The notes: generated by a model not told the origin, from the letters alone. Counted from the first letter of the stretch, positions 1 to 54,400 are shown. The stretch is DNA of 63,877 nucleotides from Malacoraja senta (GCA_038087875.1 CM075994.1:2854124-2918000), one strand, 5' to 3'. A program made the numbers and translations.

Positions 1-129
1 AAGGCGGTTCTCCCAGGACTCTCCCATTGGCTCTCCCATTGGTCTTCAGGTGGGCTGACGCCTGCGATGTCCCCCAAATGCGGGATACTCGACTGCAAAA
101 TTTGTGGTAGTGGGGGACTGCGTTCACGC
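1..129 (+). pseudogene. RNU1: U1 snRNA pseudogene/variant, 3' portion (5' end cut by window edge)
   Basis: Recognisable U1 sequence AAGGCGGTTCTCCCAGG...GCTGACGCCTGCGATGTCCCCCAAATGCGGGATACTCGACTGCAAAATTTGTGGTAGTGGGGGACTGCGTTC, including the Sm site AATTTGTGG. Has an internal tandem duplication (ctctcccattgg x2) and lacks the terminal TTTCCCCTG. Confidence 0.85.
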
Positions 130-140
130 AAAAACAATTA

Positions 141-18529: not shown

Positions 18530-18596
18530 GGCCCAATAGCAGAAGCGTCCACGTCGCGGGGCTGGAAACTGGAAGTATCCCAAGCTAATTCTGCTA
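18530..18596 (+). ncRNA. HDV-like (CPEB3-type) self-cleaving ribozyme fold
   Basis: P1 GGCCC/GGGCT (G1-U wobble), P2 TAGCAGAA/TTCTGCTA, P3 GCG/CGC, L3 TCCACGT, P1.1 CC/GG, P4 CTGGAAG-TA-TCCCAAG (imperfect), J4/2 CTAA with catalytic C at 18585. Confidence 0.8.
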
Positions 18597-18722
18597 CCAC
18601 CATCATCTATTGCAAGAAGTGAAGACTCCCACTGATTGTCGCTGACAGCTTGCGTCCTTTTCAGGACGGACGATGACAGCGATGTCAACATTTGAAATAT
18701 AGAAGATGGATACAAAAGAAGA
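18530..18722 (+). mobile_element. Short non-autonomous retroelement with 5' HDV-like ribozyme and (GAA)n tail
   Basis: 11-bp TSD AGTCATTCCTT (18519-18529, 18723-18733); 3' tail aaaagaagaa; ribozyme fold starts at the first base. Confidence 0.8.
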
Positions 18723-20827
18723 AGTCATTCCTTCTTCCCACTCCCATCATGCAGAAGATACGGAAACTTAAAAGTGTGCACCACCAGTCTCAAAACAGCT
18801 TCTTCCCTTCTGTTATCAGGCTTCTGAACAATCCTACCATAAGCTACGGTACTGTCCAATTCACCTCTACCTCATTACGGACATTGAACTTTATCTATGG
18901 AATAGGTGTACTACAATGCTGAAACAATATTCTGTACACTGTATATTCCTCTTAGCTCTACCTAGTGTGTTTGAGCTTGACGATTGTATTTATATATAGT
19001 GTTATCTTATTTTATTGGATAGCAGGCAAAACAAAGCTTGTACAATAAACCTAAACCTAAATATCCATTATATCAATGGAGGTGCAAATCTTAATCCGTC
19101 TAATTTGTAATTTAGAATAAGAACTGGCACATTTTTTTGCTTTGAAGTATGTCTAATCCTGGATCCAAGAGCCAATTCATCACTATAAACGCTGGGGAAT
19201 CTCCATAAAATTGAGCCGTTGCCACTGGATTCTATGGGAAGTCCTGCTGTGGAAGATCTTGAAAGATGTTGCTCAGTAGTTCTGGACTTCTGCATTTGAC
19301 TATAAACACAAGGAAGTCCTGGATTTGCTTCCACTTAACCAGGTAAAACTCGGCAGTCCTGTCCAGACCACTGCTATTCTTTGAAGAGCAGATTATATGA
19401 ATATTGAATCAACTCAAAGCAATGCAAAGGATTTCTCTAGCTATCAATGCTAAATTGATAGTTAATCAAATTTGCCATAACCAGTCAAGCACTAGAGCAT
19501 TTATAAGGCGTGGAATCAAGTTAGATAACTAGGGCTAAAATACAAAACACATCATCTAATTGAATTAACAGGCTTGAGAGTCAAATGGCCTTCTCTCACA
19601 GTAATATTAAAGATTCAAATTTTCTATTATTTTCCAGACAAATAGTGACACAGGGAGAAATGTAATTGAATTGCAGCAAATAGCCATGATAAAACACATG
19701 AACGAAGCACAGGTCAAAGATAACAGAGATATGATTGTAAATAATTGAGATATGGATTCTGTGAGAGTTTCTATGCACAGTTGACAAATACTGGTAAAAT
19801 CCTGTTGAGACAACAAATGCTTGCTCAGCATTCCTGTTCTACAGTAGCTAATAGTTCAAAGGAAAATCACTTCTGACAATTGGCAAGGAAGGAGATAAAG
19901 GTGCAGCATCTTACTGTCATATAAACTTCAGGTGGGTTTTGCGGCTGTGATTACTCTTAGCTCATATTTTCCTTTCTTTGTACCACCGTCTCATTGTCAT
20001 CTATATAAAATTTTAGACGTTTCTGGTGCAGAGATGTATATAGCACAGAATAGGAACATAGCAGAAAGAGAACCATCTTACCCTCAGGCATGTTTATTCA
20101 AATCAAATTTAGCTGTTTTATTTTATCCTAATCCCATTTACCTACCATGACTCAATGCTCCCTGACCATTTTGGCAATTTGATTATCAGTCTAAGAGCAT
20201 GTTAGTTCTCTGTCATAAAGTTGTCTGCTAACTGCACCTGGCTATGTTACACCGATCTCCTGACGAAAGGATTCAGGGCAAAGAAAATTCAGGACAATAT
20301 GACAACATATTTGAAACAAAATAGTGTGTTTACTGGAAATATGAAATACAGGTAGAAGATGCTAGAAATACTCATTGTTAAAACATTATGAGCTCATAGA
20401 GTCATACAGAACAGTCTTTTCAGTCCATTCAGTACCATCTGACCATCTCACATTATATTCCATATCTTTTCTCCACACATTCCCATCAACTCCCATCCCT
20501 AGATTCTACCATTCACCTACATTCTGGGGGCAACTTACAATGGCTAATTAACATACCCGTAAGTTGTGAGAACAAGTCAGAACACACAGAGGAAATCCAT
20601 GTAGTCAAAAGTAGAGTGTAAAAACTGCATAGACAAGATTGAATCCAAGGAACTGTGAGCCAGCAGCTCTACTAGCTGCGCCACCGTGAAACACTGAATA
20701 CTTCTAAAATGTTATTCCTTATAAAGCACTAATATCCAACATCTTTAATCATTGTATCAGTTACAGACAGAACTGTCCTGGGAGTGAAACGAGTCTGCCT
20801 TTTTTCATGTAGAAATTTACACATATA

Positions 20828-48466: not shown

Positions 48467-51400
48467 CTGAAAGAGAATACAGCAACATTTCAGAAAACTT
48501 GGGCAGCAAAAAATAATTTAACTTGTAGTTATATCAAGTTAGCATAAAGTACAAGTCCACACTACTACTATAATTTAAGCTTCAGATAAAAGGTTGAGGG
48601 ATGTGGGCCAAATGCAGGCAATGGGACAAAGTATAGATGGGGCATCTTGGTTGGCATGGAAACACACCCCTGGCCCAACTTGCCCATGTTGCATTACTCT
48701 GAATTAATGGTATTATTTTTGAATCAAATAGGGAATTCTGACCTTTTACAGACAGGAATTTATATACACAGGTTCTGCATCTTATTTCCCATGTAACACG
48801 TTGTCCTGGAATAGAAATAAAGCTAATCTATGAATGATGAGTCTATTAAATTGAGATAAACTGCTTTCGCACATCTTAAATCGAAATCAATTGTGAGAAA
48901 ACGTATGGCAAATTGCAATCTACTGTTCTCCTTTAAGAGTGTTTTGATGTGGAGAGAAGGTGGTAGTTGCTATTTGCTTTTCTTCTCTCTTCACTGAACA
49001 TTGACAACTCTGAATTTTAAAACTACTCTGACCAATCAATATTAATTCAAAATAAATACTTACCTAAAACAGGAATCACTGTTATTGTTTTGGAATTTTT
49101 TGTTGCCTCCAATATATTTTCTGGCATGTCTTCATTACTAAAGGAATAAAAAAGTATTATTCCATTTCATGATCTAGAAGCCATTTAATTGTTTCCTCTA
49201 GTTTTAAAAGATTTTTTGGTTGATATGTATAGAGGTAAGAGTTAATTTTAAATTCTGATGGGATTAAAAGACTTTTACTAATTCCAATAACTACAGGTTG
49301 TAAATGATTCACACTTTGTAGCAAGAACAACAAAAGAAAAGTACTCACGCATCAACAATAAGAACAGAGTCTCCCCAGTGCCTATGTAATGCCAGGTCAC
49401 GAAGATATTCAGGGTCTGGACTGGGCATCTCCAAGGAATCAATAATATGAAGGTAATCCTGAGAAGCAAGCCATCACATTAATGGAAATTGCACAGTACA
49501 TGGTGTTTTAAAAGTCAAAAGGCAGTGATGGAACATCCTTACAATATGTTGCATAAGTCCAATAGTTACACTGGCAAAAAACTTAAATATTTATAACTAC
49601 CTTACATACCATTTATTCAACATGTGCCACCAATATAAATCAGTCAATGTAACAGTTTAAGCAGATTATTAGATTAGAGCTACAGCATGTAAACAGGCCC
49701 CTTGGCCCACCGAGTCTGCGCCGACCAATGATCTCGCAGCCACTAGATCTATGTTATCCTAGTTTTGCACTCCATACACTAGGGGCAAGTTACAGAAGCC
49801 AATTAATTAACACATCTTTGAAATGGGAGGAAACCAAAGCACCCAGAGAAAACCCACATGGTCAGAGAGAACGTACCACTCTGTATTGACAACACCCGTA
49901 GTCAGGATTTAAACCAGGTCTGGTGCTGCAAGGCAGCAACTTAGCCATTGTGCCACCCTGAACCCATCAACCCATCACAACTGAAGGACATTACACCAAG
50001 CAGATGCCATGTGGTTATTAAATAAATAAAATTCTGTATGCAATTATAATATAGATGATTCACAGCATAAAACAGAACTATTTTGTATATAACAGTAATA
50101 TGCAGAATCTGATTACATATATTTTAAAAAGTTTGATTAAAAGAATGCATACTACTTGCACCAAAGATATTTATCTCAAACTACACTTTGCTCTTTACTA
50201 AAAAATTCAATCACATATCAAGTAAATTTGGATCAAGCTTTCTTGATGAATTTGTACAATATGCTTAAGAAGCTGGTGGACAGGATACAAGAAGAGGTGC
50301 AATGAAGAATATAATTCCTAGTCACAACTAAGAAAAGCATACCAGGCATGCAGACACAAGTGAAGAAGCAGATGTTAAATTTGTAAATCAAGATAAATGC
50401 ACTTACCTGAGCAAACTTCATGGTGAGAGCTACTTTCAGGCCCATTACACGAACTTTCATGGGCAACATATAATAGTAGCTTGTTGGTCCTCGAGGACCA
50501 TGGGAAACACCGCCTATGAAACACAATATATTTTATGCTTGGAACAGATCTTTGCCCAGCATATCAACTGGCTGAATTCTTCCTCTACCCTGTGCTCTAA
50601 AAATGCCTTGCAACAATTGTTTCAATAGCAAAAATTACTTAACATTTTAAGACAAAGGAATTTACATGAAAATGGTAAAAGCACTGCTACTTTAAAAAAA
50701 TATCAAATCTGCATTCATCCCAAAATGGTGCATTAATCTAAATAATAACATTATTCACATTTTGAAAGCCCGGTTTTCTCCAATCATTAAAAAATCTTCT
50801 GTTAATGTAATCAGTATTTTTTAAGGAATGCTATTCAATTAAAAGAAAGCATATTAGAATGCCACAAAGGAATTTAATAATTGCAAAGAATTGAATGAAT
50901 GTCATTAGCTTGCGCACTCTTCTAGGGATAAGAGGGAATAAAGATGGGCTTCTTTGAAAACAATGGTTAAAAGAAACCGTTTTTAAAGCAGTTAAAAAAA
51001 TTGCCTGTTATTTATTTAATAGACAATAGGTGCAGGAGTAGGCCATTCGGCCCTTTGAGCCAGCACCGCCATTCAATGTGATCTTCTTTTTGCTTATGGC
51101 GTGCACAGCCTAAAGTTGTAGGACAACTTGTTCTATTTGATCTTATTTGATTGTGCACGCCATAAGCAAGTTGATTGCATTCGTCGAAACAGGGTGGACC
51201 AAGTGAAGGTTGCAATCTTCCACCCTTCAATGTGATCATGACTGATCGTACCCAGTCAGTACCCCGTTCCTGCCTTCTCCCCATATCCCCTGACTCCGCT
51301 ATCTTTAAGAGCCCTATCTAGCTCTCTCTTGAAAGTATCCAGAGAACCGGCCTCCACCGCCCTCCGAGGCAGAGAATTCCACAGACTTACAACTCTGTGT

Positions 51401-54400
51401 GAAAAAGTGTTTCCTCATCTCCGTTCTAAATGGCTTACCCCTTATTCTTAAACAGTGGCCCCTGGTTCTGGACTTCCCCAACATCAGGAACATGCCTCTA
51501 GCATGTCCAAGCCCTTAATAATCTTATATGTTTCAATAAGATCCCCTCTCATCCTTCTAAACTCCAGAGTATACAAGCCCAGCTGCTCCATTCTCTCAGC
51601 AGATGACAGTCCCGCCATCCCGGGAATTAATAAAGATGGGCAATGCCAGCTTTTATGTCCATTCCTCACTTAGCACTCAAAATATGTTCCCAAGAACACT
51701 AGCTTGAAAGCAATCAGTGCTGAAAAGGTCATAATCCCATTATAAATTGCCAGCCTCATCCCTGTATCTCAGTTTAGACAAGTCCTTATGACAGACTTTG
51801 CAAGATCAATTGGATTGAGTGACTCTTCTAGGGGAGGTGTCCCATCTGATTTGGTAATGGTGCTGAAGGTGATCAGAGCGGTAAAGAAGGATAATATTTT
51901 GAGTAAAATTACATGTTCATTTTATAACTACTTATATTTTCAGTACAAAATAGTAAATCATTGGAATCTAAGATCCCAAAATGAACACAAGGTAAAGTTT
52001 ATGCAATTCAGCAGAACTACAAATATGAATATGGATTATTTAAACAATAGATGGTTACCTCCTCTCCATACTGGTGATCGGATACTTCCTTGCCGAGCCC
52101 TACCACTTCCTTTCTGTTTCCAGGGCTTTCTGCCTCCTCCTCTTACTTCAGCTCGAGTCTTCACTCTGGCATGACTCTACAAATATTAAAACATGCCAGT
52201 ACCTTATTTCTTCTCCCTTTGAAATTTTGTCTACTCCTCATTTACTTTAACGTTAAATTTTGATGGCATCTTGCAATCCCTTGAATTTAAAATTACAATT
52301 GGAGCAGATTAGATGCAGATAAATTATTTCCTCAAAATGTAGTAAATATTAGGAGTTCAAGGATGTGGATTTAGATCGACTGAATCTCTAAAGACTGAGT
52401 TGGTTACATTTTGTATAGAGCAAAGGAGATAAAGTAACATTAAGGCAAAAATTACAAAACAGATTCAAGCAGCCATGTTGCCTAACATTGACACAAAGTG
52501 CTGGAGTATCTCAGCGGGTATGGCAGCACCACTGGAGACATCACCCATCCTTTTTTTCCCCAGAGATGCTGCCTGACCGGTTGAGTTATTCCAGCACTTA
52601 GCATCTATCTTTGGTATAAACCAGCATCCGCAGTTTTGTTTCTATACTTTAGCTATTTTGCTTTCCTGTATTTCTAGAACTCAGACTCAAGACCAAATCT
52701 AGTTCTGAGCACAACAGCCTGCATCCTGGACAAATAATTAAAGACTACTTACTATTCTTTTAAAGTTTTTCTGCCAAATTGCAACTTCGTGTAGAATATC
52801 AATTCTGTTTAAAAGCAAATAAAAAATCATTGGTAGCCTCTTTTAAAAAGCATGTCAATAAAAATGTTGCCCAACATAATTTCACATAATAACAATAGCA
52901 TTGCGCTGGACAAAAAATATAAGATATTTTCCAAGAATTGCATTCTAGCATATTACTTTTTATAGAATTGCCTTGGCCAATTTCGGCATCATCCCCCTTC
53001 TCCTCAAACTCCAAAGATTGATCAGCGCCTCATCCATGAGTCCAAGCATCTACATTCCTCTGCCATCAGTAAATCACCTCTACAGTATAAGCAAATTCCA
53101 AGATCTACTGCAGCAACTCATTAAGCCACTTTTGGCATCGTGCCCCAACACGCAACCTCATCGTTGAAGGGAAATAAAGGAGACTGTCAAAACAAACCAA
53201 ATGCAAGCCTTGGATTTTCCAAGACTGGATGTAATCATTACTTCTCTTTCACCCCTCTGTAATGAGCCAAAGAGTAAATATAGACTCTGGTCATTGACAG
53301 GAGAAATTTCCTCACAGTGCTCACCGTATCAAGCTCCAAGAATCTTCTATTTCAATGAGATCAGATCTTACCGGGATTACCTACACCCGAATATGAACTC
53401 TTACACATTTACAAGTGTTTGGGAAATCAGCTGTTTGCTGGGGGTGGGGTGGAGGAAAAACGGCATTTCCATGAGTTTTCTCTCCTGCTAGCTCCAACAA
53501 TCAGGGGCTGGGTCAAGCTGAGCAGACCTGTGAGACCTGACTTTACGGCACTCCTAATAAATTATGAAGCATCATTTTCCTTTCAGAAATCCACATTGAC
53601 TCGGCATAAATCATGCTATGATTTTGTATGTGCTCAGCTATTCCTTGATAACCTTGATATCCTTGATTTCAGCATTTCTCAATAACTGACTTCAAGCTTT
53701 CCTCATCTGTTACTCTCAGATTTCTTACTCACTTTTTAAAAATAGCAAAAATAATATTCCTAAGGTAGACACAAAAAGCTGGAGTAACAAGGCAGCTGTG
53801 GAGAGATGAAATGGGTGACGTTTCAGGTTGATTCTTCAGACTGATGTCGGGGAAGGGGTGGGACAAAGATAGAAAGTAGGCTGAGACAGTAGGACTAGTA
53901 GGGGAACTGGGAAGGGAATATTCTGAAATGTTGGGCAAGGAAAATTACTGAAGTGTTGTTTAGAGACTACAGTGCGTTGTGACAGCATATGTAAGAAAGG
54001 CCTATGACAGCAGGGCTGCCAACATTGGGTGAGAGTTGGGAGTGAGAAATTGCGAGAGACCAAGTCCGAGGGAGCGTAGCGACCGGGGAGGGGGGGGGGG
54101 GAGGAGGGTGTCCCCCCTCCCATTGGTATGGAACTTTTGCATTTTTCAGCTTGAAATTGTGCAATATGGTGCATACTGTAGCGAGTCTTTTAACTCACAC
54201 TTGAATGCAATATATATGCTTTAAATTGGATTAGCTATGAATAAGGTTAGATTAAATTACATTCCACAGTAGAGCCCAGGCTCTGATCAACACATGCAGC
54301 ACATGAATGATCTTAGTGTATTCATGTATGGAAATCAGGTTATAATCAAACACTTGGCCCATGTTGACCAACCTGGGTCTCACTGCACACCTGGTACTAC

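What the first reader, a model, noticed from the sequence alone, without database searches (positions are those of the whole stretch)
51072..51237. Second, unrelated ribozyme-headed SINE: minimal HDV-like fold, sense strand in an MRPL4 intron
Seen: a 142-nt insertion with 12-bp TSD and GAA tail whose 5' end (minus strand) reads AGGGTGG-AA-GATTGCA-ACC-TTCACTT-GGT-CCACCCT-GT-TTCGA-CGAA-TGCAATC. This gives perfect P1, P2 and P3, a CPEB3-like L3, an almost absent P4 and a J4/2 catalytic C, in only 54 nt. Stem sequences differ entirely from the 18530 element while the topology is the same. It is transcribed as part of MRPL4 pre-mRNA (intron 50514-52058). Inference: it could cleave the pre-mRNA of an essential gene, like the intronic CPEB3 case. 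The first base (A, from the TSD) and L3 TTCACTT rather than TTCACGT may be attenuating changes.
Basis: partly seen in the sequence, partly recalled or inferred. Interest (0 to 1): 0.8.

Follow-up and report, generated by a model that had tools for sequence, protein, structure and literature searches.

The report
Ribozyme-headed mini-LINE, one damaged intronic copy
This is one of thousands of copies of a 135-base jumping element, the fused two ends of a longer Vingi-like retrotransposon, whose head is predicted to be a very small self-cutting RNA; this particular copy in an MRPL4 intron has lost two key bases and likely does not regulate the gene.

Summary
In detail: a 142-nt insertion with a 12-bp TSD and a perfect 54-nt HDV-like fold, sense in an MRPL4 intron; a fold descriptor finds it once in the window versus 0.01 per shuffle. 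It is not a SINE proper. It belongs to a family of at least 6,375 copies made of the 5' ~87 nt and 3' ~36 nt of a 2.8-kb single-ORF Vingi-like LINE found in the same genome. The LINE carries the same ribozyme head. 85 of 96 sampled loci reach the head and the target duplication ends at or beside G1, the predicted cut site. Family-level changes fall only at tolerated positions; other Vingi-like elements show the fold with different stems. Cleavage itself is untested. This copy has lost G1 and G25, the two positions ranked most important in CPEB3, through integration and ordinary decay, and lies 712 nt from the 3' splice site, so a CPEB3-like regulatory role is unlikely. Of interest: a P4-less HDV-like ribozyme heading a vertebrate retroelement, with about 2,770 better-preserved copies.

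The parts
51084..51225 (-). Inserted element, 142 nt: non-autonomous, internally deleted derivative of a Vingi-like LINE
51226..51237 (-). Upstream copy of the 12-bp target-site duplication; its last A (51226) stands in for the lost G1
   Evidence: family G1 in 73 of 85
51072..51083 (-). Downstream copy of the target-site duplication
51173..51226 (-). Predicted 54-nt HDV-like ribozyme without P4 (P1 51226-51220/51197-51191; P2 51217-51211/51179-51173; P3 51210-51208/51200-51198; L3 51207-51201)
   Evidence: fold predicted, cleavage untested
51202..51202 (-). Position 25 of the ribozyme: T here, G in the family and in the Rfam CPEB3 consensus; partner of U20 at the metal site
   Evidence: role from PMC13635239 and 10.1101/2022.05.31.494017 (passages)
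51183..51183 (-). Predicted catalytic cytosine (C44, first base of J4/2), intact
   Evidence: (C in 78 of 85)
51140..51225 (-). Part homologous to the 5' end of the partner LINE (ribozyme plus start of the ORF frame)
   Evidence: alignment to L311
51086..51121 (-). Part homologous to the 3' end of the partner LINE: last codons, stop codon (51112-51110), short 3' UTR, tail
   Evidence: 34 of 36 identical to L240
51152..51169 (-). 5' arm of the 18-bp body stem; 51169-51163 is a 7-nt addition that is the reverse complement of this copy's own 3' end
51090..51107 (-). 3' arm of the body stem
51113..51129 (-). Small inner hairpin (7 bp); its 5' arm is specific to the short family
51019..51650 (-). 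Older high-copy LINE 3' fragment (CR1 type, label recalled) into which the element inserted; ends approximate
   Evidence: depth profile; same target sequence at the 3' end of L101 and L109
50514..52058 (-). MRPL4 intron, 1,545 nt; predicted cut site 832 nt after the 5' and 712 nt before the 3' splice site
52059..52176 (-). Upstream MRPL4 exon
   Evidence: PF00573 E 7e-15
50407..50513 (-). Downstream MRPL4 exon
   Evidence: PF00573 E 1.6e-5

Best explanation
The element is a short, internally deleted derivative of a Vingi-like LINE that shares the LINE's 5' and 3' ends, whose 54-nt head is predicted to be a self-cleaving HDV-like ribozyme that likely cut the RNA out of host read-through transcripts for copying by the LINE protein, and this intronic copy is likely a damaged, neutral passenger. 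Shown: bipartite homology to the LINE, copy number, 5' junctions at G1, target duplications, conserved pairings. Inferred: a source copy is transcribed passively; the ribozyme cleaves 5' of G1; the LINE's APE-RT protein recognises the 3' ~36 nt (and perhaps the 5'/3' stem) and performs target-primed reverse transcription to the cleaved end; this copy lost G1 at integration and G25 by later mutation, so it cleaves too slowly to compete with splicing of a short intron.
For: Partner LINE: 3 of 96 loci sampled by a 3' motif are LINE tails; L301 is a colinear 2.8-kb copy with TSD, ribozyme head, APE, RT, CxC...H...C end and the same 3' end; an intermediate (L210) has LINE nt 1-90 joined to the last 44 nt. 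85 of 96 loci reach the head; the upstream TSD ends at 0 or +1 relative to G1 in 54 of 80 and within 3 nt in 79 of 80. No excess G at -1 (14 of 85, background 22%), as a capped start might give. Family-level variants in the 54-nt head occur at 3 positions, all tolerated (J1/2; T-A/T.G pair; second base of J4/2), against about ten in the next 56 nt. A Vingi-like ORF from an unrelated contig is preceded by the same fold with changed stems (L348), and a third family shows it in decayed pieces. R2 SIDE ribozymes of the same design self-cleave in vitro (PMC3414825, passages). G1 and G25 were the two most important features of CPEB3 activity (10.1101/2022.05.31.494017, passage); G25A gave no cleavage in 60 s and a 6-thio change cost 1000-fold in a C. 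briggsae HDV ribozyme (PMC13635239, passages). 712 nt is 10-12 s of transcription at the 3.5-4.1 kb/min quoted for mammals, against 9,931 nt and a 2-3 min half-life for Cpeb3 (PMC10919898, passages).
Against: No cleavage assay or RNA end data. Precise 5' ends would also result from an internal promoter starting at G1, as L1Tc has both (PMC3383444, abstract in search listing). A 5-nt link in place of P4 is at the small end and could fold poorly. My descriptor found a complete fold upstream of only 1 of 25 Vingi-like ORFs from metagenome contigs; many of these are truncated, decayed or more distant relatives. G25U and A1-U were not themselves measured in the papers I saw. No named Vingi sequence was available for a tree. 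No intact ORF among the 18 LINE loci examined (longest open stretch 436 aa), so mobilisation cannot be shown to be current.
Confidence: 0.8

Rival explanations
1. The copy was kept or tuned as a CPEB3-like regulator: it cleaves MRPL4 pre-mRNA at a moderate rate and lowers or gates MRPL4 output.
For: Sense orientation in the intron; all helices and C44 intact, P1 fully Watson-Crick; the best natural HDV ribozymes reach 4.6-9 per min (PMC13635239 table passage), fast enough for a short intron.
Against: G1 and G25 lost; both kinds of change recur at random in the family; young insertion inside another repeat; only 712 nt to the 3' splice site; a nested-fold model pairs the upstream flank with the ribozyme's 3' half (-38.2 kcal/mol versus -28.6 plus a P2 duplex of -7.4 before any pseudoknot penalty; weak, since the program cannot fold pseudoknots). 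With thousands of copies, many sense intronic ones are expected by chance.
Confidence: 0.04
2. The head defines the 5' end as an internal Pol II promoter (and possibly a translation start signal); the HDV-like fold is real but slow or vestigial in the short family.
For: L1Tc's first 77 nt are both promoter and ribozyme (PMC3383444 abstract). The LINE's first ATG lies at nt 47 inside J4/2-P2, in frame with the ORF, so the head is under more than one constraint. Cleavage untested.
Against: The short family has no ORF to keep, yet its family-level changes spare pairings and core; no extra-G signature at -1; stems covary across families.
Confidence: 0.12
3. It is a conventional Pol III SINE with an RNA-gene-derived head, and the pseudoknot is a chance fold.
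For: Size, tail and TSD are SINE-like; Rfam gives no ribozyme match at this place.
Against: Head aligns to the LINE's 5' end; no tRNA, no A or B box within one mismatch (motifs recalled), no 5S/7SL/tRNA Rfam hit here; descriptor chance rate 0.01 per window.
Confidence: 0.01

Closest known systems
R2 SIDEs (short internally deleted elements) of Drosophila (PMC3414825, passages seen)
   Same: 5' HDV-like ribozyme plus LINE 3' end, no ORF, precise 5' junctions, reliance on co-transcription and on the partner's protein
   Different: Here dispersed over the genome with 8-14 bp TSDs, APE-type partner, thousands of copies, 135 nt instead of about 500, ribozyme without P4 and with a 2-nt J1/2
Non-autonomous Vingi derivatives such as those of Vingi-1_EE in hedgehog (via PMC5786205 section 23 and passages; the original paper PMC3002237 was not held)
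   Same: Bipartite 5'+3' derivative of a compact single-ORF APE-RT LINE without RNase H
   Different: [quoted passage not shown]
NARTc / RIME / SIDER of trypanosomatids with L1TcRz (PMC4035085 passages; PMC3383444 and PMC3185411 abstracts in listings)
   Same: Ingi-group LINE, short derivative sharing a 5' HDV-like ribozyme hallmark
   Different: 77-nt hallmark with P4 and proven promoter activity; partner has RNase H (recalled); protist host
Minimal HDV-like ribozymes (drz-Mtgn-1, theta ribozymes; PMC10879173 passages)
   Same: No P4 domain; catalytic C first in J4/2
   Different: Those are reported almost only from gut phages, beside tRNAs; the eukaryote search there covered human, mouse and protists. 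Here the host is a vertebrate retroelement
Mammalian CPEB3 ribozyme (Rfam RF00622 consensus; PMC10919898 passages)
   Same: Same helix lengths to position 38, identical family L3, intronic sense position
   Different: CPEB3 is single-copy, conserved, has P4, keeps G1 and G25 and lies 9.9 kb from the next exon; this is a young, damaged repeat copy 0.7 kb from it

Membership tests
HDV-like ribozyme | Nested double pseudoknot P1, P2, P3 with correct strand order | tested here: met
   all 17 pairs in window copy, family copy and LINE head
HDV-like ribozyme | P1.1 (C22-G37, with U21/U38 as in CPEB3) | tested here: met
   C22 82 of 85, G37 85 of 85; present in window copy
HDV-like ribozyme | Catalytic C at start of J4/2 | tested here: met
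   78 of 85; intact in window copy and in both J4/2 variants
HDV-like ribozyme | G1 and U20/G25 in the family | tested here: met
   G1 73, U20 83, G25 77 of 85; 2,772 copies unchanged over nt 1-35
HDV-like ribozyme | G1 and G25 in this copy | tested here: not met
   A1 and T25
HDV-like ribozyme | Covariation of helices among relatives | tested here: met
   L348 differs on both sides in pairs of P1, P2 and P3 and keeps all pairs; within the family only one single-sided change (T-A/T.G); 1 complete example of 25 examined
HDV-like ribozyme | Self-cleavage 5' of G1 | not testable with these tools
   indirect only: 5' junctions at G1
Rfam HDV/CPEB3 families | Match to a covariance model | tested here: not met
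   no match at this place at E<=1
Bipartite non-autonomous LINE (SIDE) | 5' and 3' ends homologous to one autonomous LINE, middle deleted, no ORF | tested here: met
Bipartite non-autonomous LINE (SIDE) | Retrotransposition hallmarks shared with partner (TSD, variable tail) | tested here: met
   TSD in 80 of 85, mostly 10-13 bp; L301 has TSD and the same tail
Vingi clade (partner LINE) | Compact single ORF, APE + RT, no RNase H | tested here: met
   RVT_1 and Exo_endo_phos_2, no RNase H in the C-terminal pieces; none of the 120 listed homologues (mostly about 1,000 aa) carries an RNase H Pfam entry; definition from PMC13708176 passage
Vingi clade (partner LINE) | RT phylogeny with named Vingi elements | not testable with these tools
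   no sequence named Vingi was returned; RT region 50-77% identical to the RNase H-less homologues, 26-33% to this genome's I-like and CR1-like elements
SINE (Pol III, RNA-gene head) | Head derived from tRNA, 5S or 7SL with A/B boxes | tested here: not met
Domesticated intronic ribozyme (CPEB3 type) | Intact core, conserved at the orthologous site, effect on host mRNA | tested here: inconclusive
   core damaged; contigs of related species do not bridge the site; effect not testable

The most novel reading that the evidence does not exclude
A vertebrate genome holds about 2,700 intact, P4-less 54-nt HDV-like ribozymes spread by a Vingi-derived mini-element, the smallest retroelement ribozyme of this class I could find described; the ribozyme sets the 5' end, overlaps the LINE's start codon, and, with a 5'/3' stem that closes the RNA into a loop, explains both the precise full-length insertions and the many LINE copies with an inverted extreme 5' end. 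The intact copies that fell into introns in sense are a natural experiment on how CPEB3-like intronic ribozymes arise and are purged, and a few may cut host pre-mRNAs.
Probability: 0.3. Interest if true: 0.65.

Novelty: new variant of a known kind. Interest (0 to 1): 0.4.

Why it matters
Ribozyme-headed, internally deleted LINEs are known (R2 SIDE, NARTc), so the principle is not new. What is added: (1) the link between bipartite Vingi derivatives and a 5' ribozyme, which PMC5786205 left open (Vingi makes bipartite elements but is not in its list of ribozyme clades); (2) a P4-less ribozyme in a vertebrate, a form reported almost only from phages (PMC10879173); (3) a 135-nt natural minimal template for a LINE clade now used for gene insertion (PMC13708176); (4) thousands of intact copies that make the question 'are sense intronic ribozymes selected against or co-opted?' testable in one genome. 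The MRPL4 copy itself matters little.

Tried and rejected
Rfam: no match at the element. Partner search by PF14529 returned two-ORF I/Nimb-like, CR1-like and other LINEs; none of 30 + 20 loci shared the element's ends, so these were rejected although the I-like one also ends in (GAA)n. A pattern meant to exclude short copies gave 9 hits, none a LINE, because the shared 3' part is shorter than I guessed. The idea that the L3 T variant is a propagated, tuned subfamily was rejected. Substitution rates of copies do not differ usefully between paired (61 of 2,768), core (5 of 419) and other (7 of 506) non-CpG sites: no sign of selection on inserted copies either way. Flank base skew as a proxy for orientation bias in transcribed DNA was null (TA skew -0.006 +/- 0.007, 85 loci) and has little power. 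Sequencing runs: no RNA holder listed; DNA contigs of two related organisms hold the family and the intron flanks (about 4% different) but do not bridge the site, so presence at the orthologous position is unknown; a second laying on possible RNA runs did not complete. Nested-fold energies for flank interference are inconclusive. In one search the L210 row was given wrong coordinates and was ignored; the P2 row of L396 was out of register and was ignored. Earlier findings of the scan: nothing returned. Papers not held: Ruminski et al. 2011 (PMC3308841) and Kojima et al. 2011 (PMC3002237); the first may already describe ribozymes in elements later renamed Vingi (my recall, unchecked).

Full report
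1. Observation. On the minus strand a 12-bp duplication at 51237-51226 and 51083-51072 encloses 142 nt ending in an A/GAA tail. The first 54 nt, counting the last A of the duplication, form P1 (7 bp), P2 (7 bp), P3 (3 bp), a 7-nt L3, G37-U38, a 5-nt link instead of P4, and J4/2 starting with C. Helix lengths to position 38 equal those of the Rfam CPEB3 consensus printed, so CPEB3/HDV numbering applies. My descriptor finds this one site in the window and 1 hit in 100 shuffles. Rfam itself misses it. The intron 52058-50514 lies between two Ribosomal_L4 exons on the same strand. The target site is the 3' end of an older high-copy LINE. The host is a vertebrate with a 1.94-Gb assembly; its repeats look like those of a cartilaginous fish (recalled, not tested).

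2. The family. Exact short patterns give 2,709 matches for a 21-mer of the head, 2,772 for nt 1-35 with two variable places and 6,375 for a 14-mer of the 3' stem; reversed controls give 0. I examined the first 100 hits of the 3' pattern, a sample independent of the head. After dropping 4 duplicated loci, 85 of 96 reach the head; of the other 11, 3 are clear LINE tails, 1 is a very short LINE-type tail, 1 has an internal deletion that broke the alignment and 6 are 5'-truncated. G1 is present in 73 of 85. A duplication was found in 80 of 85, mostly 10-13 bp, and its upstream copy ends at 0 or +1 relative to G1 in 54 of 80 and within 3 nt in 79 of 80. So insertions begin where an HDV-like ribozyme would cut. 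The base before G1 is T in 44 of 85 (background 28%, p = 5e-6) and G in only 14. All pairs and core bases are intact in 33 of 85. Divergence in the head is 2.0% at non-CpG and 9.9% at CpG sites. Changes shared by many copies fall at three head positions only (8 in J1/2; 32, T-A or T.G; 45, second base of J4/2), against about ten in the following 56 nt, as expected if source elements needed the fold.

3. The partner. Three sampled loci continue upstream not into the head but into the end of an ORF with a CxC...H...C motif whose stop codon lies inside the short element's 3' part. Searching with it gave 387 candidates; 6 of 30 loci showed the same ribozyme head, inverted, running on into an APE endonuclease frame. 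Searching with that 5' part (28 candidates) gave L301, a colinear 2.8-kb copy with its own duplication, head, APE, RT and the same 3' end. Pfam finds Exo_endo_phos_2 and RVT_1 and no RNase H. The 120 listed homologues are mostly about 1,000 aa on contigs of 3.0-3.8 kb and none lists RNase H. This fits the definition of Vingi as a compact single-ORF APE element without RNase H (PMC13708176, passage); no named Vingi was available for a tree. The window element aligns to the LINE's nt 2-81 and to its last 36 nt (34 identical); an intermediate form keeps nt 1-90 and the last 44 nt. It is therefore an internally deleted LINE, not a SINE in the Pol III sense (distinction as in PMC4494074, passage). 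All 18 LINE loci read are broken.

4. Is the fold general for such LINEs? Of 25 homologous ORFs from metagenome contigs scanned for an upstream fold, 1 (L348) has a complete HDV-like fold 174 nt before the match, with different but fully paired P1, P2 and P3; 0 of 127 internal control windows and no antisense window scored. Copies of a further family (L334, L372, L390) each keep parts of the fold with the same L3 and a P4. The rest are truncated, decayed or more distant. This is modest but independent support.

5. This copy. Against its subfamily it differs by A for G1, T for G25, A for G32, two changes near the tail, and 7 added bases. A1 is target DNA; 12 of 85 sampled copies likewise lack G1. 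Position 25 is the G of a CpG: 638 copies have another base there, A 81, C 10, T 9 among the first 100 listed; the 46 T copies sit on several subfamily backgrounds (30 read). These are accidents, not a tuned lineage. G1 and G25 were the two top-ranked features for CPEB3 activity (10.1101/2022.05.31.494017, passage); G25A abolished visible cleavage in 60 s and a 6-thio G25 cost 1000-fold in another HDV ribozyme (PMC13635239, passages). G25U and A1-U were not measured there. The base at -1 is A, a poorer one in genomic HDV (PMC1874588, abstract). The added 7 nt are the reverse complement of this copy's own 3' end and lengthen the body stem from 10 to 18 bp, likely a template-switch event.

6. 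Could it regulate MRPL4? Cpeb3's ribozyme has a 2-3 min half-life and 9,931 nt to the next exon; slow intronic ribozymes had no effect on splicing (PMC10919898, passages). Here the distance is 712 nt, 10-12 s at the mammalian rate quoted there. A doubly damaged core is unlikely to compete. No RNA data were available. I give this reading 4%.

7. Mechanism, best reading (80%). Read-through transcription of a source copy; self-cleavage before G1 (inferred); recognition of the 3' end by the LINE protein and target-primed reverse transcription to the cleaved end (inferred from duplications, tail and shared ends); joining to the target with small microhomologies, which explains G1 loss and the T bias at -1 (inferred). 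The main rival is an internal promoter starting at G1 (12%).

8. What is known. R2 SIDEs have this design and self-cleave (PMC3414825, passages); so do trypanosome derivatives of L1Tc/ingi (PMC4035085, passages). [quoted passage not shown] P4-less HDV-like ribozymes are described as almost confined to phages (PMC10879173, passages). A review ties retroelement ribozymes to 5' processing and translation initiation (PMC7761336, passage). Searches for Vingi with ribozyme, Vingi with cartilaginous-fish terms, Ingi with HDV-like, Vingi with internal deletion and HDV-like ribozyme with SINE and vertebrate terms listed no paper on this family or on a Vingi ribozyme; but Ruminski 2011 and Kojima 2011 were not held, Repbase and patents were not searchable, and no supplements were read, so prior description is quite possible.

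9. Verdict. Real feature; a new variant of a known kind (ribozyme-headed internally deleted LINE), notable for the P4-less head, the Vingi-like partner and thousands of intact copies in a vertebrate. The headline of the finding, cleavage of an essential gene's pre-mRNA, is not supported for this copy. Interest 0.4.

Noticed in passing
L241, L242, L244, L246, L265, L267, L268: 7 of 30 partner-LINE loci selected by their 3' part carry an inverted 5' piece; in 6 it reaches nt 5-19 of the element while the forward part starts only at nt 1418-2311, a gap of over 1 kb, unlike the adjacent pieces of L1 twin priming (recalled). Suggests the RNA's 5' end is held at the target site.
   Followed up: partly
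L299, L240, L301; window 51152-51161 and 51098-51107: The LINE has a 10-nt segment just after the ribozyme complementary (9 of 10) to its 3' UTR; the main short subfamilies perfect it. Possible RNA closure signal.
   Followed up: partly
L301:966-1150, L311:937-1050: The LINE's reading frame is open through the ribozyme and the first ATG is at nt 47, spanning J4/2 and P2; a cleaved RNA would have no cap.
   Followed up: no
window 18530-18725 (+): Separate ~195-nt element family (2,020 candidates) with a CPEB3-like head including P4 (Rfam RF00622 30 bits, below the cut-off of 35), precise G1 starts, TSDs and (GAA)n tail; no similarity to this element or its LINE. Its P2, P3 and L3 nearly equal the CPEB3 consensus; partner not sought.
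   Followed up: partly
P0001: An intact 1,019-aa relative, 72-77% identical to the partner LINE, on an unnamed 3.3-kb contig; the next relatives are 40-50% identical and, where named, from arthropods and a tunicate. Horizontal transfer is possible but untested.
   Followed up: no
L074, L078, L079, L100: Young two-ORF I/Nimb-like LINE (label recalled) with many near-identical copies holding a 1,277-aa open frame and a (GAA)n tail.
   Followed up: no
window 1-138 (+): U1 snRNA-like sequence cut by the window start, 43.5 bits, below the gathering score; likely a pseudogene or variant.
   Followed up: no
85 sampled loci: T precedes G1 in 52% of insertions (background 28%); U at -1 is the best base for genomic HDV cleavage, so the integration step may favour daughter copies that can cleave again.
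   Followed up: partly
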